Positions 11,438-55,971 of a stretch of 64,000 nt of DNA are shown here, piece by piece. The position numbers were made by a program, and so were the translations under genes. Each line of letters begins with the position of its first letter. The first letter of the stretch is position 1. A model generated the notes under the pieces. That model was given only the letters and a program-made list of their open reading frames with translations, searched no databases and had not been told where the DNA came from. Origin of the DNA: Ignavibacteriota bacterium (GTDB lineage Bacteria; Bacteroidota; Ignavibacteria; UBA10030). The stretch spans positions 1,568,001 to 1,632,000 of the forward strand of contig OY969585.1 in assembly GCA_963701295.1 (NCBI GenBank). The letters are read 5' to 3'.

Positions 11438-12199
11438 CTAATCCTTGATGCAGCGAACACTCAAACCGAGTGTTTTATTGAAAGGGAAGTAGTTGACATT
11501 ACTATTGTCGAGGACCAGGTACATGCCCCATGCGCCGCCAGTATTGTACTCCGTAGAACTCCAAAAGTGAGCGTAGTCATTAACGACGAAGGAATTATCG
11601 ATGTTGCGGTAGCCCGCAAGCAACGCAGAAAACCCGCTGGTATTTGTACCAACACCGCTTCCCGTTCCTTGCCCTACTGCTTTTAATGCATTTCCATCAT
11701 TGCTTACTGTTGTTGATAACGTTTCAAATTCTGTATATGTTGGTATGTGCCAACCGGTTGGGCAAATGCCTTGTACATTTCCAGAAAAAGCTGGACTAGG
11801 TGATGTTGTATTTGTAGCTCCATTTAGATATTGAACTGCTTCAGCCCATTGGTATAAACCGCCGTATGCTGTACAATTTGCCTCATCATCGCTGTAGCAG
11901 TATTTTTCTATTGTACTGTTATTCGTTTGGTCTGTGCTACCGGCTATTCTTATTCCTAAATTAAGGTTCTCTTTTAACCAGCATTGGCTGCCTATTACTA
12001 CAGTGGTATAAGTTTGCCCAGCATATGTAATGGTACTAGTTCCACAAGTAAAAGCAACATTAGTAAATGTTAAATTAATAATATCGTGAACCCAAATATC
12101 CTCCGTTGTGTTATCTGCCTTCTTTACGCTCATCTTATATTGCGCAAATATTGCACTAGTCCCTAACACAAATATCATGGTAAATAATATCTTTTTCAT
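11438..12199 (-). CDS. FISUMP (Fibrobacter succinogenes major paralogous domain) secreted protein
   Basis: YTTVVIGSQCWLKENL, YGGLYQW, QGICPTGWHIP, GFSALLAG, FWSST, SVRCIKD. Confidence 0.9.
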   Translation of the reverse strand: MKKILFTMIFVLGTSAIFAQYKMSVKKADNTTEDIWVHDIINLTFTNVAFTCGTSTITYAGQTYTTVVIGSQCWLKENLNLGIRIAGSTDQTNNSTIEKYCYSDDEANCTAYGGLYQWAEAVQYLNGATNTTSPSPAFSGNVQGICPTGWHIPTYTEFETLSTTVSNDGNALKAVGQGTGSGVGTNTSGFSALLAGYRNIDNSFVVNDYAHFWSSTEYNTGGAWGMYLVLDNSNVNYFPFNKTLGLSVRCIKD

Positions 12200-12219
12200 T
12201 TTTAATTCCTTCTCAATAT

Positions 12220-13062
12220 TTATTTTATCATTAACATTTTTATAGTACTTGAATAATTAGCAGAACTCATTTTACAGATATAAACACCGCTTGCTAATCT
12301 GCTTCCATCTAATGTTGCTTCATAGCTTCCGGCTTTTTTATTCTCATTTACGAGAGAAGCTACTTCTCTTCCTAAAACATCAAAAACTTTCAGAGTAACA
12401 AAACCATCAATCGGGAGGTTATATACAATTTTTGTTTGCGGATTAAATGGATTTGGAAAGTTATGCTTTAATGCAAAGTTTGCCGGTGCTTCTATAGTTA
12501 CTTCAACAACATTGCTGTATTCGAACTTGCCGTCAAGGTTTATCTGTTTTAAACGGTACTGGAATTTTGTTCCTTCTTGTGGTGTATCTTTGAATGAATA
12601 CGTTTTTGGACTGTTGCTGTTTCCATGTCCTTGAACAAAACCAATCTTCTCCCACACACCCCTGCCTTCGGCTTCCCCTCTCGAGAGGGGATTAAGGGGT
12701 GTGCTTCTTTCTATCTCAAACCCGTAATTGTTCACTTCAGTGGCAGTATACCAAGATAACGTAATTGTTTTCTGATCTACCGTTGCAATGAAACTCACAA
12801 GTTCAACCGGTAATAATGATCCGCCGTTGCTTGCACCAAATGTAATGTTCGAAATGGTTGACATTCCATCAGTTGTTACATCAGAACTAGCTAGTTGGAA
12901 AATAATATCAGTTCCATTAAAAGTGATTTTTGTTAATCCTGAGATGTCAATTGTTTTCTTGGAGCTATTAGTATAAAGAACATTAAGATAGGTTTGAGAA
13001 TAGAGTTGAACTGAAAAGAAAAACATAAATAAGATATTTAAAGCATTAATAGAATGTTTCAT
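12220..13062 (-). CDS. T9SS type A sorting-domain protein
   Basis: Signal peptide; LPVELVSF...W.TATEVNNYGFEIER...YRLKQINLDG module; CTD NFPNPFNP...LKVFDVLGREV...LASGVY...KMLMIK. Confidence 0.9.
   Translation of the reverse strand: MKHSINALNILFMFFFSVQLYSQTYLNVLYTNSSKKTIDISGLTKITFNGTDIIFQLASSDVTTDGMSTISNITFGASNGGSLLPVELVSFIATVDQKTITLSWYTATEVNNYGFEIERSTPLNPLSRGEAEGRGVWEKIGFVQGHGNSNSPKTYSFKDTPQEGTKFQYRLKQINLDGKFEYSNVVEVTIEAPANFALKHNFPNPFNPQTKIVYNLPIDGFVTLKVFDVLGREVASLVNENKKAGSYEATLDGSRLASGVYICKMSSANYSSTIKMLMIK
12655..12703. repeat. GC-rich palindromic (REP-like) element inside a CDS, in frame
   Basis: 9-bp terminal IR CACACCCCT/AGGGGTGTG enclosing a GCCTTCGGC mini-hairpin and the perfect 18-bp palindrome TCCCCTCTCGAGAGGGGA. 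Confidence 0.8.
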
Positions 13063-45695: not shown

Positions 45696-47027
45696 ATGAG
45701 GCACACCAAAGTGATCATCATGGGCGCAGCGGGACGGGATTTCCATAATTTCAATACTGTTTTCCGCATGGACGACCGCTATGAAGTCGTCGCGTTTACT
45801 GCAACACAAATTCCAAACATTGAAGAGCGTAAGTATCCTGCTGAACTGGCAGGAAAGTTTTATCCAAATGGCATTCCAATCTTTCCAGAATCGGATCTGC
45901 CGCGCCTTATTAAAGAACTGAGTGCAGATGAGGTTGTTTTCGCGTACTCAGATGTTTCATTTAACTACGTGATGAGCAAAGCAGCACTCGTAATGGCCTG
46001 TGGTGCTGATTTTAAATTGCAGGGTGCGCATCCAACGATGCTCAAGAGCAAAGTACCGGTCATCGCTGTGGTCGCAGTGCGTACGGGATCTGGCAAGAGT
46101 CAGACTTCGCGCAAGGTATGTCAATTACTCCGCGCAGCCGGAAAAAAAGTTGTTGCGATCCGTCATCCAATGCCGTACGGCGATCTGGTAAAGCAAAAAG
46201 TTCAACGGTATTCTTCTCTCGAAGACCTGCAAAAGTATGAATGTACTGTTGAAGAGATGGAAGAATATGAACCTCACATCGTCAACGGAACGATCATCTA
46301 CGCCGGAGTTGATTATGAAGTGATCCTTCACGCGGCAGAGAAGGAAGCCGACGTGATCGTGTGGGACGGCGGAAACAATGATATGTCATTCTATCAACCC
46401 GATCTTACCATCGTGGTAGCAGATCCGCACCGTCCGGGACATGAGATATCGTACTATCCCGGTGCAGTTAACATTCATCTCGCCGATGTTGTTGTTATTA
46501 ATAAAATAGATACAGCCTCGCGCGAAAATATCGACATTGTGCGGAAAAATATCGTCAGCACAAACCCGAAAGCAATCATTATTGAAGCGGCATCGCCCAT
46601 TACAGTAGAAGATGAAACCGTTATCCGCAATAAGCGCGTACTCGTGGTGGAAGATGGGCCCACATTGACCCACGGCGAGATGACGTATGGCGCCGGTATG
46701 GTTGCAGCTCGAAAATATGGTGCAAAGGAAATCATCGATCCGAGACCATGGGTCGTTAATTCTATTGCAGAAACATTCAAGAAATATCCGCATATTGGAA
46801 CATTGTTGCCGGCAATGGGATACGGTGGAAAACAGATCACGGATCTCGAGACGACAATCAATACAGTCGAATGCGACTCAGTCATCATCGGCACACCGAT
46901 CGACCTACGTCGTATTATTAAGATTAACAAACCAAGTACGCGTGTGCGATATGATTTGGATGAAATCGCAAAACCGGACTTGAATGAAATCTTGAACAAT
47001 TTTATGAGAAAACATGGATTGAAATAA
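45696..47027 (+). CDS. arcE: cyclic 2,3-diphosphoglycerate synthetase-like P-loop protein; probable arginine synthetase (ArcE-like)
   Basis: MGAAGRDFHNFN, AFTATQIP, AVRTGSGKSQ, RHPMPYG, EEYEPH, WDGGNND, EDGPTLTHG, PAMGY. Directly upstream of OTCase and carbamate kinase; the symbol rests on family recognition plus context. Confidence 0.75.
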   Translation: MRHTKVIIMGAAGRDFHNFNTVFRMDDRYEVVAFTATQIPNIEERKYPAELAGKFYPNGIPIFPESDLPRLIKELSADEVVFAYSDVSFNYVMSKAALVMACGADFKLQGAHPTMLKSKVPVIAVVAVRTGSGKSQTSRKVCQLLRAAGKKVVAIRHPMPYGDLVKQKVQRYSSLEDLQKYECTVEEMEEYEPHIVNGTIIYAGVDYEVILHAAEKEADVIVWDGGNNDMSFYQPDLTIVVADPHRPGHEISYYPGAVNIHLADVVVINKIDTASRENIDIVRKNIVSTNPKAIIIEAASPITVEDETVIRNKRVLVVEDGPTLTHGEMTYGAGMVAARKYGAKEIIDPRPWVVNSIAETFKKYPHIGTLLPAMGYGGKQITDLETTINTVECDSVIIGTPIDLRRIIKINKPSTRVRYDLDEIAKPDLNEILNNFMRKHGLK

Positions 47028-47035
47028 CATTATGT

Positions 47036-47063
47036 GTAGGGATACGCCATGTTGTGTCCCTGC
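47036..47063 (+). repeat. degenerate GTAG-type REP palindrome
   Basis: GTAGGGATACGCCATGTTGTGTCCCTGC forms an imperfect hairpin inside the operon spacer. Confidence 0.55.
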
Positions 47064-47079
47064 CAAGGAGAAAAAAACC

Positions 47080-48093
47080 ATGAAACGAGATTTCCTCGGT
47101 ATTGCAAATTGGTCAACGAAGGAATTAACACAAATCCTCGACCTTTCAAAAAAAATGAAAGCAAATCCAAAACAGTTTGCCAAATCTTTAGAAGGTAAAT
47201 CGGTGGCGCTGATTTTTGAAAAGCAGTCGCTCCGCACGCATGTGACATTTGAGATCGGCATGAAACAATTGGGTGCTAACACGGTATATCTTACCAATGC
47301 CGATATCAGTCTGGGCAAACGTGAATCCATCTATGATGTTGCAAAAAATCTCGAACGTTGGGTTGATGCAATTATCATCCGAACGTTTGCCCAGAAGAAT
47401 ATCGACGATCTTGCAAAGTTTACTAAGATTCCCATTATCAATGCTCTGACAGACTTCGAACATCCGTGTCAAGCAGTCGGTGATTTCCTTACCATTCAAG
47501 AACACCTCGGCTCTTTTAAGGGAAAGAAACTCGCATGGGTTGGTGATGGGAATAACGTCTGTCACTCGCTTATGCTCATGGCAGCAAAAGTGGGAATGGA
47601 CTTTATTGCGATTACTCCTGCAGGTTTACAGCCTCATTATACGGTGGTAGAACGTGCTATGGAGATCGCTGCAACCACCGGAGCAAAGATCGAACTCTCG
47701 TGCAATCCATCGGAAGGCGTACATGATGCTGATGTTATTTACACAGACGTATGGGTCAGTATGGGTCAAGAGGCAGCTTTCGATACGAAGATGAAGGCGT
47801 TTGCAGGATTTCAAATTGATGCCGAGTTAATGAAACAGGCAAAACCCACAGCCATCTTTATGCACTGCCTGCCGGCACACCGCGGAGAGGAAGTAACAGA
47901 TGAAGTGATGGACTCATCTCAGTCCGTAGTATTTGATGAAGCAGAAAACCGGCTTCACACACAGAAAGCAATTCTGTATACGCTGTTGAAAGATAAGGGA
48001 CGTGAAAAACTCCATACTCGTCGCAGTCGGCGGAAACTCGCTCATCCGAGCCGGACAGCGCGGAACAATCGCCGAACAGTTCGTAAACGCTAG
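47080..48093 (+). CDS. argF: ornithine carbamoyltransferase
   Basis: FEKQSLRT, LGKRES, HPCQ, GDGNNV, DVWVSMGQE, HCLPAHRG, AENR; AAGGAG RBS before ATG 47080. A catabolic arcB role is possible. Confidence 0.95.
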   Translation: MKRDFLGIANWSTKELTQILDLSKKMKANPKQFAKSLEGKSVALIFEKQSLRTHVTFEIGMKQLGANTVYLTNADISLGKRESIYDVAKNLERWVDAIIIRTFAQKNIDDLAKFTKIPIINALTDFEHPCQAVGDFLTIQEHLGSFKGKKLAWVGDGNNVCHSLMLMAAKVGMDFIAITPAGLQPHYTVVERAMEIAATTGAKIELSCNPSEGVHDADVIYTDVWVSMGQEAAFDTKMKAFAGFQIDAELMKQAKPTAIFMHCLPAHRGEEVTDEVMDSSQSVVFDEAENRLHTQKAILYTLLKDKGREKLHTRRSRRKLAHPSRTARNNRRTVRKR

Positions 48094-48940
48094 ACTTACC
48101 GCTAAAAGTCTTGCAGGTATTGTTGCGCAGGGCTATGCGCTGATCATAACACATGGTAATGGTCCGCAGGTTGGTGCACAATTGTTACGTTCGGAGGCTG
48201 GCTCATCGCAGACGTACACACTTCCACTTGATGTATGTGTCGCCATGACGCAAGGTGAAATCGGTTTTATGCTGCAAAATTCCATGCAAACGGTACTCCA
48301 CAAACAAGGGATCAAACGTTCTGTTGTTACCGTTGTCACACAAGTCATTGTAGATAAAAACGACCCTGCATTTCAACGTCCGACAAAACCGATCGGTCCG
48401 TTTTATTCCAAAGAAGTTGCAGAACGAAAGAGAAGGGAATTAAGCTGGAGTATCATTGAAGACGCCGCTCGTGGTTATCGCCGTGTTGTTCCCTCTCCTC
48501 TACCACAAGATATCATTGAACTGGATGTAATAAAGGATTGTCTGGAACATAATAATGTCATCATAGCTGTAGGCGGCGGTGGAATTCCCGTGATACTTGA
48601 AAATGGTGAAGTCAAAGGCGTTGAAGCAGTGATTGATAAAGATCGTGCATCTGCATTGCTCGCCTCAAAATTAGGTATTGAGCATCTCATAATCTCGACA
48701 GAAGTGCCCGAGGTCTATATCAATTATAAGAAATTCGACCAGCAGGCGCTTCGAATCAGCACGGTCGCAGAAGCAAAAAGACATCTTGCTGATAGACAAT
48801 TTAGTGAAGGCAGTATGAAACCAAAGATTGAAGCTGCACTTGATTTTCTTTCGGCTGGCGGGCAACTTGTGACCATTACTGATCCCGGACATCTCCTCGG
48901 TGCGTTGGAAGGCAAAGCGGGAACGAGGATAACGTTATGA
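48002..48940 (+). CDS. arcC: carbamate kinase
   Basis: VAVGGNSL, THGNGPQVG, PTKPIGPFY, RRVVPSP, GGGGIPV, EAVIDKD, GSMKPK, GTRI. Confidence 0.97.
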   Translation: MKNSILVAVGGNSLIRAGQRGTIAEQFVNARLTAKSLAGIVAQGYALIITHGNGPQVGAQLLRSEAGSSQTYTLPLDVCVAMTQGEIGFMLQNSMQTVLHKQGIKRSVVTVVTQVIVDKNDPAFQRPTKPIGPFYSKEVAERKRRELSWSIIEDAARGYRRVVPSPLPQDIIELDVIKDCLEHNNVIIAVGGGGIPVILENGEVKGVEAVIDKDRASALLASKLGIEHLIISTEVPEVYINYKKFDQQALRISTVAEAKRHLADRQFSEGSMKPKIEAALDFLSAGGQLVTITDPGHLLGALEGKAGTRITL

Positions 48941-49176: not shown

Positions 49177-50458
49177 ATGAAGAAACTGATTCCAGGACAG
49201 AATATCCGCATAAACATTGATCCATTTGCTTCTTTTCGATTCCCCGAATTTCGTTATCTCGTAGCCGCTTCATTTTTATTGACAATGGCATTGATGATTC
49301 AAGAAGTTGCCATTGGCTACGAACTGTACCGCATTACTCACGACCCGATGGCGCTGGGACTCATCGGACTTGTCGAAGCAATACCGTTCATTTCATTTAC
49401 GCTCTATGGCGGCCATGTTGCGGATCGTAGCAGCAAGCGGAAGGTGTTAATGTGGAGTGTCGGTGGAATCGCTCTCAGTTCGGCGATGCTTCAATTTTTT
49501 ACTCGGCAGCAGGATCAGATTCACCAGCCGGTACTGTTGGTTGCTATCTATGGATCAATATTTGTCATTGGATTATGCCGTGCATTTCTATCGCCGACAG
49601 CAACGTCGTTGCGCGGGATTCTTGTTCCACCTGCTTTGTTCGAAAATGCCGCAACATGGGGAAGTTCTTCATGGCAAGTTGGCGCCATTCTTGGTCCAGC
49701 TGCCGCCGGATTTCTCTATGCTTGGATCGGTTTTGCCAACACTTTACTGGTTGTCACACTGCTTGTCGTTTCATCTTTTCTGCTTTATTCTAAAATCAAG
49801 GATCGCCCGATTGCCCAGATTGCTCGGCATGGTAGTGTTATCGCAAGTATTAAGGAAGGCATACGGTTTGTTTTCAACACAAAAATTATTCTCTATTCAA
49901 TTTCGCTCGATCTTTTTTCCATCCTCTTTGGCGGCGTGATGGCGATACTGCCAATCTATGCACAAGATATTTTAAAAGTGGGTGCAGAAGGGCTTGGGAT
50001 ACTGCGCGCTGCCCCGTCTATTGGTGCAACGCTTATGCTCATTTTGCTTTCGCGTTTCTCGCCTATGGAGCATGCCTGGAAGAACTTACTTATTGCAGTT
50101 GCAGGATTTGGTGTGTGTATTTTGACCTTTGCTGTCTCGCCTTGGATGCTGGTCTCGATAGCAGCTTTGTTCCTGAGCGGTGCATTCGATAGCATTAGTG
50201 TGGTTATCCGAGCGACCATTCTCCAAGTGATGACTCCCAATGAAATGCGTGCACGTGTGATGGCCGTGAATGGAATCTTCCTCGCCTCGTCAAATGAAGT
50301 TGGTGCATTTGAATCCGGTACAGCAGCAAAACTATTCGGGACAGTACTATCAGTTACTTTTTGGCGGCACAATGACACTGCTCATCGTCAGCTGGGTATA
50401 TTTTAGAACCGGCGATCTGTTGAAGGCAAAAGTAAGAGGTCATGCCACTTCCAAGTAA
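49177..50458 (+). CDS. MFS transporter (H+ antiporter-3/EntS-like) with a +1 frameshift near 50355 before the last TM helix
   Basis: GHVADR motif A, SLDLFSILFGG, SSNEVGAFESG. The expected final helix LFGGTMTLLIVSWVYF lies in another frame, ending at 50458. Confidence 0.8.
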
Positions 50459-50584
50459 AGATTTAAATCAATGAATCTGCGCCATTCCGTAATTGATTAT
50501 TTCAACATCCGGTGTAAGGATGTTCACCACTTATTGGAATGACGTTGAGTGTGGAATATAGATTGTTCAGCGTAATTGGTAAGA

Positions 50585-50638
50585 AATCAGTGATTTATTT
50601 AGGGTAGTAATTTATATTTCCTTTGGCACAAATATTGG
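50585..50638 (+). promoter_or_regulatory. putative sigma54 promoter (TGGCAC-N5-TTGG) with upstream IHF-like site
   Basis: TGGCACAAATATTGG at 50624-50638 (-12 element GG instead of GC); AATCAGTGATTTA at 50585-50597. Confidence 0.5.
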
Positions 50639-50737
50639 GACATGATTATGGGAAAGTTCAAGAGAAAGTATTCTACGAGCATATATGCAAAAGTGCAAGT
50701 TGAGAAATCTAAATTTATTTTTTGAGGAGAAACAATC

Positions 50738-51406
50738 ATGGTAGCATTATTCGTTGTCGCCACAATCCTTCTCTGTGTTGGAATTGAACTCCTCCGAGAT
50801 CGAACCAAGCAGCGGAAAGAAGCACCATCAACTGCTCAAATAGCGGCAGATCAATTTTTTTTGCCGAAAGGATTCTTCATCAGCAAAGCCCACACATGGG
50901 TCGAGCTTACGTTTGCCGGTGAAGCACGTGTTGGTGTTGATGACTTTGCGCAAAAAGTCATCGGATCAATTGACAGAATCGAAGTTGCACCACTCAACAA
51001 GGAACTGAATAAGGGAGACACACTTTTCACTGTGGCGCAGGGCAATCGTGTGCTCTCTATTCCTGCTCCGATATCCGGAAAAATATTGGCGGTGAACGAA
51101 TCACTGCTTGCTTCCCCCAAAATGTTTCATCAAGACCCATATGTAGCTGGATGGGTTGCAGTAATCGTTCCCAAAAATATTTCAGCGGAATTGCATTTAC
51201 TCGCCATCGCCGATGATGCGGCAAAATGGTTGAAAAAAGAAGTCAACCGCTTCCGCGATTTCGTAAAAGAGCAGGCGCAAATCGGTGTGCCGGTACCCGC
51301 AGGCGCTACCATGCTGGATGGAGGCGCACCATTGAATGGAGTGCTGGGGCAGTTTAATGAAAACACATGGAATGCTTTTCAGAAAGAATTTTTGAAGACA
51401 GAATAA
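50738..51406 (+). CDS. membrane-anchored GcvH-like protein lacking the lipoyl lysine
   Basis: N-terminal TM helix; HTWV, VGVDDFAQ, APISG...VN, DPY..GW. The ESVK hairpin is replaced by AQGN. Confidence 0.85.
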   Translation: MVALFVVATILLCVGIELLRDRTKQRKEAPSTAQIAADQFFLPKGFFISKAHTWVELTFAGEARVGVDDFAQKVIGSIDRIEVAPLNKELNKGDTLFTVAQGNRVLSIPAPISGKILAVNESLLASPKMFHQDPYVAGWVAVIVPKNISAELHLLAIADDAAKWLKKEVNRFRDFVKEQAQIGVPVPAGATMLDGGAPLNGVLGQFNENTWNAFQKEFLKTE

Positions 51407-51440
51407 ATACTAATGCGCGCACTATCGAATCTTTTTACAG

Positions 51441-52262
51441 GTGAAAAATATGGAAAAGAAATCAACTCAGAGTATTATTCCTCAAGGCGAATTGCGATGT
51501 GTCTGGATGGATGCAGGGGTAACAGGATTTAAACTCTGTGATCAAAAATTCCATTGTGAGTTTTGTGAATTTAATAACACCATCCAGAAACGGCAATTAG
51601 GAACTGTAAATTCTCGTAATGAGGAAGAATCGGTGATCCTCATGGAAGGGAAAGCAATGACCACCGATACAATCTTTAGAAACACATTGAAGAATTATCT
51701 TGAAGGTTTACATGCGGTTGTGGTACCGCAGGATAGAATGTATAATCGCAGCCACTATTGGGTTCGGGAAAACGAGACAGGCAAGTATCGAATCGGAATC
51801 AATCACATCCTTGCAAATTTCTTTCAACCGATACTCAGCATTGTAATCTCAAAAGCTCCATTAATCATACGACGACATGATCCATTCTGTTGGATTATCT
51901 TACCAGGGGGTGCCATTACACTTCGCTCTCCCGTCGATGCAACTATTTGTAAGTTTAATCCGGCTTTGCAGCAAAAACCGAATTTGCTGGGTATGTCGCC
52001 GTTTGACGAAGGTTGGATTATGGAGATTACCACAAAGACAAAAGGACTCCATGGTTTTAGTTCTGCCCAAGATTCGCGGCAAAATACCGAACGAACAATA
52101 CGAAGCATTGAACATTCATTTGCACACGCTTTCCGACATGATCATCCTTCAGCAGGTACAACATTATTTGACGGCGGTATTGGTGTAAACAGCATCGAAA
52201 GCATCCTCGGACCTAAGGTTTACACAGAGGTTGTGAATCGAATAGTGCATTTCCCTCATTAA
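51441..52262 (+). CDS. GcvH-like protein with N-terminal Cys4 domain, lacking the lipoyl lysine
   Basis: CVWM...KLCDQKFHCEFC, then SHYWV, RIGI, LRSPV, PFDEGWI. The hairpin reads LPGG. Confidence 0.8.
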   Translation: MKNMEKKSTQSIIPQGELRCVWMDAGVTGFKLCDQKFHCEFCEFNNTIQKRQLGTVNSRNEEESVILMEGKAMTTDTIFRNTLKNYLEGLHAVVVPQDRMYNRSHYWVRENETGKYRIGINHILANFFQPILSIVISKAPLIIRRHDPFCWIILPGGAITLRSPVDATICKFNPALQQKPNLLGMSPFDEGWIMEITTKTKGLHGFSSAQDSRQNTERTIRSIEHSFAHAFRHDHPSAGTTLFDGGIGVNSIESILGPKVYTEVVNRIVHFPH

Positions 52263-52283
52263 CTTCAAATAATCTCTATTTCT

Positions 52284-52323
52284 AGCCTTTCCTATTACTT
52301 TTTTGGGAGAGGCTTTCTTTTTA
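52284..52323 (+). terminator. terminator-like hairpin after the GcvH-like pair
   Basis: AGCCTTTCCT/GGGAGAGGCT stem (with G-U pairs) followed by TTCTTTTT. Confidence 0.5.
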
Positions 52324-52381
52324 TTGAGACTTTAAGCCATTTTCACCACAGATTGTTGAGTTTATCAACTCTATTTGTTAT

Positions 52382-52396
52382 TGGCACAAATCTAGC
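52382..52396 (+). promoter_or_regulatory. putative sigma54 -24/-12 promoter
   Basis: TGGCACAAATCTAGC has GG-N10-GC spacing and lies upstream of the kinase gene. Confidence 0.55.
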
Positions 52397-52429
52397 CAAA
52401 AAACTGTATATTAATTCAACTTGAACACT

Positions 52430-54028
52430 ATGCGATTTTTCCATTTACTTGGTTTTCGATTATTTCTCGGTATTGCAATAATCGTGCTCATTGGAACGAC
52501 GCTGTTCACAATGTTACTTGTGGACTGGCAATCTGGCAAGTATATAGCTTCTGCTAAACAGTCGGCAACGAATATCAGTGATCTTATTAGTCGATCCACC
52601 CGTTATAGCATGCTGCTCAACCGCCGGGAGGATATTTACGAAATTATAAAAACAATTGGAAATGAACCACGCATAGAAGGAATACGTATTATAAATAAAA
52701 AAGGGATGGTTACATTTTCAACACAAGAATCCGAAGTTGGGAAAAATATCGATATGACTGCCGAGGCGTGCATTGGTTGCCATGCAACAGGGAAGCCGGT
52801 TGTTCCGCAGAAAGATCCGACACTCAAGCGCATTTTCGATTCGCCGAAAGGATATCGTGTTATTGGGATCATCACTCCTATCCGAAATGATGCAAGTTGT
52901 TCCACAAATGATTGCCATGCGCATAGCCCTTCCCAAACCGTGCTCGGAATTCTTGATGTCATGCTCCCGCTTCAGGAAGTCGATCAGGATATTGTACAAT
53001 TTGAACGTACGCAAATTCTTGGATCGTTTTCACTTGTCGTTCTGCTCACTGGCTTCGTTACCATCTTCATCTGGAGGATGGTCAATATTCCTGTCAAGAG
53101 ACTTGTGATTGGGACTCAGGAAATCGTGAAAGGGAATCTCGATTATCGCATTGATGTCCAAACGAGTAATGAAATTGGATCACTAGGAATGTCCTTCAAT
53201 CAGATGACACAAGAGTTAAAACGCGCACGGGTAGAACTGACTGCTTGGACACAAACACTCGAACAGCGTGTTGCTGAGAAGACCGACGAGCTTCGCCGTG
53301 CACAAAAGCACATGGTACAAATTGAAAAGATGGTGTCACTTGGTACCCTTGCTGCTACTGTTGCGCATGAATTGAATAATCCTTTGGAAGGTATCCTTAC
53401 GTACGCCAAGTTGCTGCGGAAAAAAATAGAACGAGGAATTCCATCGGCGGAAGACACACAAGAAATGATCGGTGAGCTGACGCTCATTGCGGACGAGACG
53501 GCGCGTTGTGGCAACATCGTCAAGAATCTCTTGCTATTTTCACGGGAGAAAGTCGGCGAGTTTAAAGATTCCGATCTGCGGTTGATCATCGAGCGAAGTT
53601 TAAAGCTTATCGACCATCACTTGAAAATGAATAATATTATATCTGTCGTTGAGATGGGAGATAAACAGGTTGTTTTGTACTGCGATCCATATCAATTGGA
53701 AGAGGCGCTGCTTGCGCTTGAGATCAATGCTGTTGAGGCGATGACCGGCGGCGGTTCGTTCTACATCCGTGTAGAAGAAGTTGAATATCTTCATGCAGTT
53801 CAGATCACGGTGCGTGATACAGGGAGCGGAATTACTGAAGAAGATATGTCGCACATCTTCGAACCTTTTTATACAACAAAGAAAGAAGGTAAGGGTACTG
53901 GACTCGGCCTCTCGGTGGTCTATGGTATTATCGAGCGTCATAGCGGTTCAATATCTGTAGATTCAAAACAAGGCATGGGCACAACATTTACTATAACACT
54001 TCCACGACAAACTTTGCCGAATGGATAG
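52430..54028 (+). CDS. sensor histidine kinase with periplasmic CxxCH/CX4CH motifs, HAMP, HisKA and HATPase
   Basis: TM, CIGCH and CSTNDCH, TM, HAMP (EIGSLG.SFNQM), AHELNNPL, DTGSG, FEPFYTTK, GTGLGL. Confidence 0.93.
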   Translation: MRFFHLLGFRLFLGIAIIVLIGTTLFTMLLVDWQSGKYIASAKQSATNISDLISRSTRYSMLLNRREDIYEIIKTIGNEPRIEGIRIINKKGMVTFSTQESEVGKNIDMTAEACIGCHATGKPVVPQKDPTLKRIFDSPKGYRVIGIITPIRNDASCSTNDCHAHSPSQTVLGILDVMLPLQEVDQDIVQFERTQILGSFSLVVLLTGFVTIFIWRMVNIPVKRLVIGTQEIVKGNLDYRIDVQTSNEIGSLGMSFNQMTQELKRARVELTAWTQTLEQRVAEKTDELRRAQKHMVQIEKMVSLGTLAATVAHELNNPLEGILTYAKLLRKKIERGIPSAEDTQEMIGELTLIADETARCGNIVKNLLLFSREKVGEFKDSDLRLIIERSLKLIDHHLKMNNIISVVEMGDKQVVLYCDPYQLEEALLALEINAVEAMTGGGSFYIRVEEVEYLHAVQITVRDTGSGITEEDMSHIFEPFYTTKKEGKGTGLGLSVVYGIIERHSGSISVDSKQGMGTTFTITLPRQTLPNG

Positions 54029-54069
54029 ACACATAATGAAAAGAAGAATTCTATCAAGGGATATGAATT

Positions 54070-55425
54070 ATGACTGAAAAAAAGTCTACACCACAAAGCA
54101 TCATGATTGTTGATGACGAACTGATTGTCCGTGAATCACTTACGAAGTGGTTCCGCCAAGATGGGTACCACGTCGAATCAGCGGAAGATGCAAACCACGC
54201 ACTTAAATTAATGAATGAAGGTCTATGGGATCTGGCATTACTCGATATCAAGATGCCTGGAATGAGCGGGCTTGATCTTCAGAAACGCCTCAAGGAGATT
54301 AGCAAGAACACAAGTGTTATCATGATCACGGCATTCGCCTCAGTCGAGAGCGCTGTGCAGGCGCTCAAAGAAGGTGCGTTCGATTATGTCACCAAGCCCA
54401 TCGATCCGGAACATCTTTCGCATCTTGTTACAAATGCTCTTAAACAGAGAAAATTAGTAGAAGAAAATGTTCAACTTCGCGAACAGATTTCGGATATAGC
54501 CAAAGCAAACGAGATCGTTGGTGAAAGTCAGCAAGTCCAAAAAGTGGTAGAGCTGGCAAAGACCGTTTCCAAAACCGATACAACAGTGATGCTGCGCGGT
54601 GAAAGCGGGACCGGCAAGGAGCTGATTGCACGAGTCATTCACGCTAACAGCAGCCGTCGTTACTTTCCCATCATTGCCGTCGATTGCGGCGCAATGGCTG
54701 AAAGCCTTCTGGAGAGCGAGCTGTTTGGTCATGAGAAAGGTTCATTTACTGGCGCACAGTTTCGTAGAAAGGGAAAATTTGAATTGTCTGATGGTGGAAC
54801 AATCTTTCTCGATGAAATCGGAACAATAAGCCAGAAAATGCAAGTGGAGCTCTTGCGTGTTCTTGAGACAAAGCAATTCACGCGTGTCGGTGGAAATGAA
54901 GTCGTATCCAGCGATTTTCGCGTGGTCTGCGCTACGAATCGTGATCTCGAAGCCGCGATTAAGGAGGGATTGTTTCGTGAAGATCTCTATTATCGTCTAA
55001 ATGTTTTTACGATTGTGATTCCCCCGCTGCGTGAGCGCCGACAGGATATTCCATTACTTGCTGAGTATTTCTGCAATAAACATGCAGCCGCTATGCACAA
55101 AGCGGTCACCGAAATCAGTCCGAATGCAATGGATATTATGGTGCAGTATGATTGGCCGGGCAATGTACGGGAATTGGAAAATGTCATGGAACGTGCGATG
55201 GTGCTTGCAAAGCCGCCGGCAATTCAGCATACCGATTTACCTTTCCAGCTTGCATCAAAAGCGCATGGGCTGCAGGCAGATTCGATTGCAGCGATTGAAC
55301 GAGCCCACATCGAAATGATTCTGCACCGAAGCGGATGGAATATTTCACGGTCGGCGGATATTCTCGATATTGATCGCGTCACGTTGTACAATAAAATCTC
55401 CAAGTACGGTTTAAAGAGACCGTAG
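54070..55425 (+). CDS. sigma54-dependent (NtrC-family) response regulator
   Basis: Receiver, GESGTGKE, ESELFGHEKGSFTGA, FLDEI, FREDLYYRLNV, WPGNVREL, Fis-type HTH. Confidence 0.97.
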   Translation: MTEKKSTPQSIMIVDDELIVRESLTKWFRQDGYHVESAEDANHALKLMNEGLWDLALLDIKMPGMSGLDLQKRLKEISKNTSVIMITAFASVESAVQALKEGAFDYVTKPIDPEHLSHLVTNALKQRKLVEENVQLREQISDIAKANEIVGESQQVQKVVELAKTVSKTDTTVMLRGESGTGKELIARVIHANSSRRYFPIIAVDCGAMAESLLESELFGHEKGSFTGAQFRRKGKFELSDGGTIFLDEIGTISQKMQVELLRVLETKQFTRVGGNEVVSSDFRVVCATNRDLEAAIKEGLFREDLYYRLNVFTIVIPPLRERRQDIPLLAEYFCNKHAAAMHKAVTEISPNAMDIMVQYDWPGNVRELENVMERAMVLAKPPAIQHTDLPFQLASKAHGLQADSIAAIERAHIEMILHRSGWNISRSADILDIDRVTLYNKISKYGLKRP

Positions 55426-55428
55426 GCG

Positions 55429-55971
55429 ATGTCGTCGATTCTGATCGTTCCGATTCGGCCGGTCGATCATGCGGAATTAACCTCGCTCATCGCACCGTTA
55501 ATAAGTATATTTGAGCAATCGATTTCCATCGAAGAGTCGAGATACGTTGATCTGGCGTTCGCATTTGATTCGTACCGCAACCAATTCAATTCCACTTCCA
55601 TTATTGCAGCACTTCTCGAAACCTATACAACACATCAAGGGAAAATCATTGGGATAACAACGGTGGATCTTTTTGTACCTGTGCTTACGTATGTATTCGG
55701 AGAAGCCCAGCTAGATGGTAAAGCTGCTGTGCTTTCTTCGTTTCGGCTCAGAGAAGAACTCTTCGGATTGGATGCGAATCCCGAGTTAGAGCATATTCGT
55801 TTATTGAAAGAAGCTGTTCATGAGCTTGGCCATACTTTCGGACTTATTCACTGCCATAGACCGGCGTGCGTCATGCACTCCTCTACTTTAGCCGAAGAGA
55901 TCGATGTGAAAGGAAAGAATTTTTGTGAAGAGTGTGAGCAGACAATAAGGGAAGCAACAACGATGAGTTGA
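55429..55971 (+). CDS. archaemetzincin-family (M54) zinc metalloprotease
   Basis: DLF...YVFGEA, KEAVHELGHTFGLIHC, CVM Met-turn, FCEEC. Confidence 0.92.
   Translation: MSSILIVPIRPVDHAELTSLIAPLISIFEQSISIEESRYVDLAFAFDSYRNQFNSTSIIAALLETYTTHQGKIIGITTVDLFVPVLTYVFGEAQLDGKAAVLSSFRLREELFGLDANPELEHIRLLKEAVHELGHTFGLIHCHRPACVMHSSTLAEEIDVKGKNFCEECEQTIREATTMS

What the first reader, a model, noticed from the sequence alone, without database searches (positions are those of the whole stretch)
50585..55971. Candidate uncharacterised signalling system: two lipoyl-less GcvH paralogs, heme-motif sensor kinase, sigma54 activator and archaemetzincin
Seen: five co-directional genes. Both H-protein-fold genes lack the lipoylated Lys, and no gcvT/P/L or lipoate ligase is in the window. 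The kinase has periplasmic CIGCH and CSTNDCH motifs. The M54 protease starts 3 nt after the NtrC-type regulator. Near-identical TGGCACAAAT motifs precede both transcription units. Established: GcvH needs its Lys for glycine cleavage, CxxCH attaches heme c, and NtrC-type proteins activate sigma54 promoters. Inference: a redox- or gas-sensing circuit in which repurposed H-fold proteins are accessory partners or outputs, with a dedicated cytoplasmic protease. I recall similar gene sets in anaerobe genomes but know of no functional characterisation.
Basis: partly seen in the sequence, partly recalled or inferred. Interest (0 to 1): 0.8.

Follow-up and report, generated by a model that had tools for sequence, protein, structure and literature searches.

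The report
Heme-sensing switch with lipoate-free H-proteins
Five intact genes form the core of a widespread bacterial operon whose usual iron-sulfur/quinone membrane genes are missing from this genome, and this heme-motif sensor with its gene activator likely switches on the cell's main multiheme electron-export pathway, likely helped by two lipoate-free look-alikes of glycine-cleavage protein H.

Summary
Observation confirmed. The five genes are the short form of a seven-gene operon (H1, 4Fe-4S protein, NrfD, H2, kinase, sigma54 activator, M54 protease) that this scan noted before in other genomes. This 99%-complete genome has neither NrfD nor the Fe-S gene. The short form recurs on at least five branches of the gene tree, and all five genes stay under purifying selection (dN/dS 0.03-0.31).

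The TGGCACAAAT motifs are conserved sigma54 -24/-12 promoters. Each has a palindromic enhancer (TGTTGA-N5-TCAACA) that also appears in untrained sets (64 of 64 and 6 of 17 loci). The same enhancer and promoter precede this genome's multiheme cytochrome operon, and in two relatives the signalling genes sit inside that operon.

H1 relatives carry a periplasmic PstS-like domain or a receiver domain, which points to a signalling role for the H fold.

Best reading: an autoregulated heme redox/gas-sensing two-component system controlling cytochrome-based electron export, with H-fold accessory proteins. Binding partners, signal and protease target are untested. Five literature searches found no description.

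The parts
50491..50529 (.). Pair of palindromic enhancer-like sites (consensus TGTTGA-N5-TCAACA), 22 bp apart, upstream of promoter 1; predicted binding sites of the regulator
   Evidence: Conserved in relatives; 38 of 67 upstream regions have a site with <=2 mismatches vs 1.05 in shuffles; coordinates
50623..50639 (+). Predicted sigma54 -24/-12 promoter 1 (TGGCAC-N5-TTGG)
   Evidence: Conserved position in relatives; rpoN present
50738..51406 (+). H1: N-terminal TM helix, GcvH fold without lipoyl Lys (Asn103), C-terminal helical tail with invariant DGG
   Evidence: Pfam; model pLDDT 85.7; Foldseek top hits all H-proteins
51407..51449 (.). 43-bp junction where most relatives carry a 4Fe-4S dicluster gene and an NrfD gene; no remnant here
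   Evidence: no NrfD or Fer4_11 in the genome
51450..52262 (+). H2: soluble; N-terminal C-X12-C-X5-C-X2-C motif (predicted metal site), GcvH fold without lipoyl Lys (Gly153), DGG tail
52322..52421 (+). Promoter 2 region: weak site 52322-52338, strong enhancer-like site 52354-52370, predicted sigma54 promoter 52381-52397, and a further site 52405-52421 over the expected transcription start
52430..54028 (+). Sensor histidine kinase: TM1, periplasmic Cache/PAS-like domain with CxxCH and Cx4CH (predicted two c-hemes), TM2, HAMP, HisKA, HATPase
54070..55425 (+). NtrC-type sigma54 activator (REC, AAA+ with GSFTGA variant, Fis HTH with recognition helix IDRVTLYNKI)
55429..55971 (+). Archaemetzincin (M54) with intact HExxHxxGxxH-C-X4-C-X-M-X16-CxxC
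   Evidence: NF033823 155.3 bits over cut-off 145; motif

Best explanation
The five genes are the conserved core of a sigma54 two-component operon that lacks its usual Fe-S/NrfD genes in this genome: a kinase with two predicted periplasmic c-hemes likely reads redox state (or a heme-binding gas), likely phosphorylates the NtrC-type activator, and the activator is predicted to bind TGTTGA-N5-TCAACA enhancers to drive its own operon and the genome's multiheme cytochrome operon, with the two lipoate-free H-fold proteins likely acting as accessory signalling subunits. Shown: gene set, domain content, loss of the lipoyl Lys, absence of NrfD/Fer4_11, purifying selection, conserved promoter and enhancer motifs, fusions. 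Inferred: heme attachment, phosphotransfer, enhancer binding, control of the cytochrome operon (about 0.6), and an accessory role for H1 (membrane-anchored co-receptor) and H2 (Cys-metal sensor) (about 0.55). The M54 protein likely tunes the activator, by cleavage or by binding.
For: Linkage: in 80 kinase-anchored loci, regulator follows in 64 of 64 with enough flank, M54 in 58 of 64, an H gene precedes in 53 of 56, NrfD in 40 of 56. Core vs dispensable part: H+kinase+regulator+M54 persist without Fe-S/NrfD on at least five branches, in 8 PstS-fusion loci and in two Acidobacteriota loci (L287, L288). Selection: dN/dS 0.03-0.31 in 8 short-short pairs; the window's own branch has synonymous >= nonsynonymous changes in all five genes. 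Signalling-type fusions: PstS-like domain-TM-H-DGG in the H1 position; receiver-H fusions beside the same sensor kinase. Sensor: profile hits the Geobacter heme-c sensor 3b42 (E 2.5e-4) with Cx4CH on its heme motif; cytochrome c maturation genes present. Enhancer: found in untrained sets, 64 of 64 PstS-fusion loci (background 12%) and 6 of 17 Acidobacteriota loci (background 1.5%), and not in three regulator-less loci; the regulators form one clade with a shared recognition helix. Output: sigma54 promoter with sites at about -63 and/or -31 precedes the cytochrome operon in 10 of 11 genomes of genera g1 and g5; kinase-regulator-M54 lie inside that operon in G025 and G033, and H1 is divergent from it in G002; all 26 of 41 genomes with M54 have the operon's first gene, vs 4 of the other 15.
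Against: No expression or binding data. The cytochrome promoter ranked 2nd genome-wide only with spacing windows chosen after seeing it; unconstrained it ranked 7th, inside the shuffled range. Single enhancer hits are not enriched in intergenic DNA (19 of 136 vs 12% expected). Most cassette-bearing genomes outside g1/g5 lack the site at that promoter (e.g. G017, G018, G020, G021, G027, G028, G029, G035, G037), and G023 and G038 have sites but no M54 gene. A different sigma54 regulator sits next to the cytochrome operon in seven relatives and has an ortholog here. This genome lacks the strong site its sisters have before the c554 gene. Co-occurrence counts are among kin and may reflect a shared anaerobic lifestyle. 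H1 dN/dS is somewhat higher in short forms (0.11-0.23) than long (0.05-0.11). G025 and G033 are one family, so not independent.
Confidence: 0.5

Rival explanations
1. The H-fold proteins are outputs or structural accessories of the Fe-S/NrfD quinone module (HmcBC/HybAB-like), and the five-gene form is a relic in slow decay that now regulates only itself.
For: H genes flank the Fe-S/NrfD pair in most loci and stay with it where the kinase is elsewhere (L033). One short form (L120) has an Fe-S remnant and a split regulator. H1 selection is mildly relaxed.
Against: The G019/G041/G042 clade is all short, with dS up to 0.7 and dN/dS 0.03-0.22. Promoters and enhancers are intact. PstS and receiver fusions fit signalling, not electron transfer.
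Confidence: 0.17
2. The circuit is real but senses NO or another gas and controls a small regulon other than the cytochrome operon, which is driven by the second sigma54 regulator (G000:C1:720049-721410).
For: sCache_heme domains fused to signalling modules behave as NO sensors (PMC12889525, abstract and first part read). The second regulator adjoins the cytochrome operon in seven relatives. The motif score at the cytochrome promoter is modest here (10.7 and 5.8 bits).
Against: Here the second regulator lies elsewhere with a cytoplasmic kinase and has a different recognition helix. The enhancer is conserved at fixed spacing in g1 and, in unalignable upstream DNA, in G019. The cassette is embedded in the operon in G025 and G033.
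Confidence: 0.2
3. The unit is a regulated-proteolysis device: the M54 protease cuts the H proteins at their conserved DGG loop (or cuts the activator), and this processing is the main switch.
For: DGG is invariant in 73 of 73 aligned H1-type proteins and lies in a lower-confidence loop. Receiver-H fusions that lack DGG sit in units without their own M54 or activator. The catalytic Glu is kept.
Against: Archaeal archaemetzincins with all catalytic residues were inactive on test substrates, and Myxococcus CarG is a non-proteolytic transcription adaptor (PMC3427221 and PMC8156234, passages). M54 travels with kinase and regulator without adjacent H genes in L267, L269, L277 and L117.
Confidence: 0.13

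Closest known systems
Geobacter sulfurreducens BccR (GSU0598) / cbcBA, with the two-heme-motif sensor GSU0599
   Same: A sigma54 response regulator needed to induce a bc-type cytochrome operon as redox potential falls (bioRxiv 10.1101/2021.04.15.440034, passages). GSU0599 is listed as a two-component protein with two CX2-4CH motifs (PMC8396549, passages).
   Different: No H-fold or M54 genes appear in the passages read. The predicted target here begins with a 13-heme c / b561 fusion (CbcL-like architecture) and includes NapC, Rieske, cytochrome b and a likely porin-cytochrome set. Orthology to BccR or GSU0599 was not tested.
sCache_heme sensors (GSU0582, GSU0935, DUF3365/Tll0287)
   Same: Periplasmic Cache/PAS-like domain; the Cx4CH aligns with the heme motif of 3b42.
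   Different: Two motifs rather than one; Cx4CH at the family position; PF11845 not hit.
Glycine cleavage H-protein (GcvH), GcvH-L, LbpA
   Same: Same fold: TM-score 0.90 to 1onl for H1, Z 17.4 to 1dxm for H2.
   Different: No lipoyl Lys; added TM or Cys-rich N-terminus and DGG tail; fused to receiver or PstS-like domains in relatives. LbpA is recalled, not tested.
HmcB/HmcC, HybA/HybB, NhcBC, QrcCD (Fe-S + NrfD membrane modules)
   Same: The pair missing here best matches HmcB/HmcC and HybA/HybB in relatives.
   Different: Below all four cut-offs (228.5<420, 345<550, 194<263, 305<450), no catalytic subunit in the cassette, and absent from this genome.
Archaemetzincin AmzA and Myxococcus CarG
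   Same: Same His/Cys zinc motif; CarG shows an archaemetzincin fold working in transcription control.
   Different: Keeps the catalytic Glu that CarG lacks; linked to a sigma54 activator, not CarD.

Membership tests
Glycine cleavage H-protein (GcvH) | H-protein fold | tested here: met
Glycine cleavage H-protein (GcvH) | Lipoyl-accepting Lys in the E-x-V-K hairpin | tested here: not met
   Asn103 in H1, Gly153 in H2; Lys in that column in 11 of 348 other aligned rows, none in the canonical context
NCBIfam gcvH / not_gcvH / GcvH_rel_desulf | Score over curated cut-off | tested here: not met
   H1 56.9/115.85, 32.3/144.05, 32.5/150; H2 lower
sCache_heme sensor domain | Cache fold with heme motif at the GSU0935 position | tested here: inconclusive
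   Profile hit to 3b42 at E 2.5e-4 with Cx4CH on the heme motif; no PF11845 hit; domain not folded
sCache_heme sensor domain | Covalently bound heme c; NO or redox response | not testable with these tools
   Only motif invariance (80 of 80) and maturation genes
Sigma54 enhancer-binding protein (NtrC type) | REC + AAA+ + Fis HTH, rpoN in genome, -24/-12 promoters | tested here: met
Sigma54 enhancer-binding protein (NtrC type) | GAFTGA loop | tested here: inconclusive
   GSFTGA here; 17 of 96 regulator rows share it, duplicates included. That this variant is functional is recalled, not from a call
Archaemetzincin (MEROPS M54) | HExxHxxGxxH-C-X4-C-X-M-X16/17-CxxC and family score | tested here: met
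Archaemetzincin (MEROPS M54) | Proteolytic activity and substrate | not testable with these tools
   None
CarG-type non-proteolytic zincin | Glu-to-Gln in HExxH; NF033824 cut-off | tested here: not met
   Glu kept; 95.3 vs 250
Hmc / Hyb / Nhc / Qrc membrane redox complex | NrfD subunit and 4Fe-4S dicluster subunit encoded | tested here: not met
   PF03916 and PF13247 not found in G000, 99.3% complete
BccR / GSU0599 / cbcBA system | Orthology of regulator and sensor; cbcB-type target | not tested

The most novel reading that the evidence does not exclude
The lipoate-free H fold with a DGG tail is a new bacterial signalling domain (2305 clusters at 50% identity) that works as a plug-in co-receptor for a two-heme kinase. 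It would integrate quinone-pool input (via NrfD/Fe-S), a periplasmic ligand (PstS-like fusion) or phosphorylation (receiver fusion), and in Ignavibacteria-like bacteria the circuit is the master switch for extracellular electron transfer.
Probability: 0.35. Interest if true: 0.82.

Novelty: new variant of a known kind. Interest (0 to 1): 0.66.

Why it matters
How anaerobes sense redox potential and turn on cytochrome conduits is an open question; for BccR the passages read name no sensor or binding site. This system supplies a candidate sensor, a conserved binding motif and a candidate target in Ignavibacteria-like bacteria, which are suspected of extracellular electron transfer (PMC7399161, passages). 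It also gives a testable context for two orphan families: bacterial archaemetzincins, whose natural substrates are unknown (PMC3427221), and thousands of proteins annotated as glycine cleavage H protein that cannot be lipoylated. The five-gene form is a natural deletion that separates the signalling core from the redox module.

Tried and rejected
Complex prediction of H1 with the kinase TM2-to-C-terminus dimer gave no verdict (score 0.00); it is not used as evidence. H1-H2, H-regulator and H-protease pairs were not folded. No sequencing-run data were obtained, so expression is untested. The 519-aa ORF L039:14731-16290 is not an NrfD-H fusion: its N-part looks like an off-frame extension. Genome-wide single-site enhancer scanning is mostly noise. 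Sigma70 promoter and terminator scans were at chance level. The H2 N-terminal Cys region folded at pLDDT <50 and has no tested structural match. The 11-heme cytochrome had no PDB sequence hit; the 437-aa putative porin had no Pfam or NCBIfam hit and only 0.92 look-alikes among outer-membrane barrels. Assembly artefact rejected: G001, G004 and G009 show the same short junction. A ubiquitin-like Gly-Gly exposure at DGG was considered; no evidence found (PMC13325395 passages were irrelevant). Rows left out: the tree omits loci lacking H2, kinase or regulator on the contig, and five loci where the anchor picked a second kinase; one search counts only loci with enough flank (56 or 64 of 80); G022 and G030 had too little upstream DNA.
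Full report
Observation. The five ORFs, their order and the motifs are as described. The genome is one 3.64-Mb contig, 99.3% complete; named homologues are Ignavibacteria/Bacteroidota. It has a canonical GcvH and GcvP elsewhere. The lipoyl Lys aligns to Asn103 in H1 and Gly153 in H2. Both fold as H-proteins. H1 adds an N-terminal TM helix, H2 adds four invariant Cys, and both end in a helical tail with DGG. A profile of that tail, built from proteins chosen for having DGG, finds 2305 clusters at E<=0.001 and 816 at 1e-10.

What the gene set is. In most relatives a 4Fe-4S dicluster gene and an NrfD gene sit between H1 and H2; they best match HmcB/HmcC and HybA/HybB but are below cut-off. Among those with enough flank, the regulator follows in 64 of 64, M54 in 58 of 64, an H gene precedes in 53 of 56 and NrfD in 40 of 56. 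In Acidobacteriota, 20 of 81 genomes hit the H1 profile; of these 20 loci, 13 show the sensor, 13 NrfD and 11 M54. This genome has neither NrfD nor Fer4_11; G001, G002, G009, G043 and G044 also lack NrfD. The H1-H2 junction is a clean 43 bp.

Relic or working unit. On a FastTree tree of H2+kinase+regulator, midpoint-rooted, the short form appears on at least five branches; G010, which keeps the pair, nests among short forms, so repeated loss or regain by recombination cannot be told apart. dN/dS is 0.03-0.31 across the five genes in 8 short-short pairs, including a wholly short clade with dS up to 0.7. On the window's own branch synonymous/nonsynonymous changes are 18/17, 30/23, 51/19, 38/12 and 18/11, where neutrality would give about three times more nonsynonymous. 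H1 is mildly relaxed against long forms. One short form (L120) is decaying.

Role of the H proteins. Ten of the top 150 tail hits are 527-596 aa, with a PstS-like N-terminal domain (4gd5, E 1.5e-9), a TM segment, the H fold and the tail. They occupy the H1 position of the same operon: the next gene is the Fe-S gene in 60 loci, the kinase in 8 and undetermined in 11. Receiver-H fusions occur beside related sensor kinases. So at least one TM-anchored H gene stays with kinase, regulator and M54 when Fe-S/NrfD go, and the domain is fused to input and phospho-switch modules. That it acts as an accessory of the kinase is inference; no partner is identified.

Sensor. Both motifs are invariant (26 of 26; 80 of 80). 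The profile's best PDB hit is the Geobacter heme-c sensor 3b42, with Cx4CH on its heme motif. Maturation genes are present. Related domains are described as redox sensors (PMC8396549, passages) or NO sensors (PMC12889525, part 1 of 6 and passages); two-motif versions are noted in Geobacter and Anaeromyxobacter (PMC3831638, passages). The supplementary datasets of PMC12889525 were not seen and may list this family.

Regulation. Both TGGCACAAAT motifs are -24/-12 elements conserved in position, and rpoN is present. Alignments revealed the palindrome TGTTGA-N5-TCAACA, paired 22 bp apart upstream of H1 and flanking the kinase promoter. The 38 of 67 count is circular, because the consensus came from those regions. 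The untrained tests are not: 64 of 64 PstS-fusion loci (background 12%; metagenome loci, partly redundant) and 6 of 17 Acidobacteriota loci (background 1.5%), with no site in three loci lacking the regulator. The regulators form one clade with a shared recognition helix. Autoregulation is therefore likely.

Likely output. Seven of the genome's eight multiheme genes lie in one operon at G000:C1:1343722-1356176: 13-heme c/b561, NapC/NirT, Rieske, cytochrome b, 11-heme, c554-like, a putative porin, 14-, 6- and 5-heme proteins, then ccmF. A sigma54 promoter with palindromes at about -63 and/or -31 precedes it in 10 of 11 g1/g5 genomes, including G019 whose upstream DNA does not align. Kinase-regulator-M54 (G025) or the whole cassette (G033) lie inside this operon, and in G002 it diverges from H1. 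All 26 of 41 genomes with M54 have its first gene, against 4 of the other 15 (kin are not independent). Against: the genome-wide rank depends on post hoc spacing; most cassette-bearing genomes outside g1/g5 lack the site, and two genomes without M54 have it; a second sigma54 regulator adjoins the operon in seven relatives and exists here. I put this link at about 0.6. The closest described parallel is BccR/cbcBA (bioRxiv 10.1101/2021.04.15.440034, passages).

Protease. It meets the archaemetzincin model and keeps the catalytic Glu. It follows kinase and regulator even without adjacent H genes. Archaeal members showed no activity on test substrates and CarG is a non-catalytic adaptor (PMC3427221, PMC8156234; passages), so 'dedicated protease' is unproven.

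Novelty. Searches returned no paper describing the cassette; for these I saw listings and abstract starts only, and the library omits most subscription papers. PMC8076601 (passages) covers the NrfD family; I did not search it for the cassette. This scan had noted the seven-gene form in at least eight findings on other genomes; a later look-up found no note on the enhancer or cytochrome target. Verdict: real, conserved, a new variant of heme-sensing sigma54 systems with an uncharacterised accessory domain; mechanism inferred.

Noticed in passing
P0179, P0217, P0229, P0245, P0246, P0249, P0252, P0255, P0264, P0270; L187-L266: H1 counterparts with a periplasmic PstS-like domain in front of the TM helix; a receptor-like architecture of unknown ligand. 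The second H gene of those operons has a TM helix and no Cys motif.
   Followed up: partly
L039, L040, L087, L110, L121, L131, L295-L297: Units of Fe-S, NrfD, 13-heme cytochrome, sensor kinase and receiver-H fusions without DGG, often next to the standard cassette.
   Followed up: partly
L041-L045: A second cassette type wraps two H-DGG genes around a QrcABCD-like operon (QrcA and QrcD over cut-off), with divergent kinase, M54 and regulator.
   Followed up: partly
G000:C1:1336412 (L135:2413): Strong palindrome 115 bp before a malic-enzyme gene, conserved in G001, G004, G009 and G010; a conserved sigma54-like promoter for the divergent 2-oxoacid:ferredoxin oxidoreductase operon lies 424 bp away.
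   Followed up: partly
G000:C1:499144 and 3230779: Intergenic palindrome hits directly before a gene resembling an iron-sulfur repair protein and before a nuoA-like gene (names from reading the sequence, no scan). Could be chance.
   Followed up: no
G000:C1:231044, 2478946, 2486211: Three identical stretches with the same motif hit and downstream sequence: a repeated element of unknown kind.
   Followed up: no
G000:C1:716586-722825: The second sigma54 regulator and its cytoplasmic kinase precede genes that look like a sulfhydrogenase-type operon (from reading the sequence).
   Followed up: no
window 49177-50406: The MFS transporter upstream is 409 aa against 426 aa in three sister loci; its last residues may be out of frame. 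Not aligned.
   Followed up: no
window 45696-48940: GTPase-like gene, ornithine carbamoyltransferase-like and carbamate kinase-like genes, syntenic in close relatives only (names from reading the sequence); not part of the cassette.
   Followed up: no
L120:8727-8956 and 11468-12700: Short form with a remnant of the Fe-S gene start and a split regulator: a decaying copy.
   Followed up: partly
G002:C4:1049021-1051060 (L148): The 13-heme/b561 gene divergent from H1 has a stop inside the match and lacks the usual promoter.
   Followed up: no
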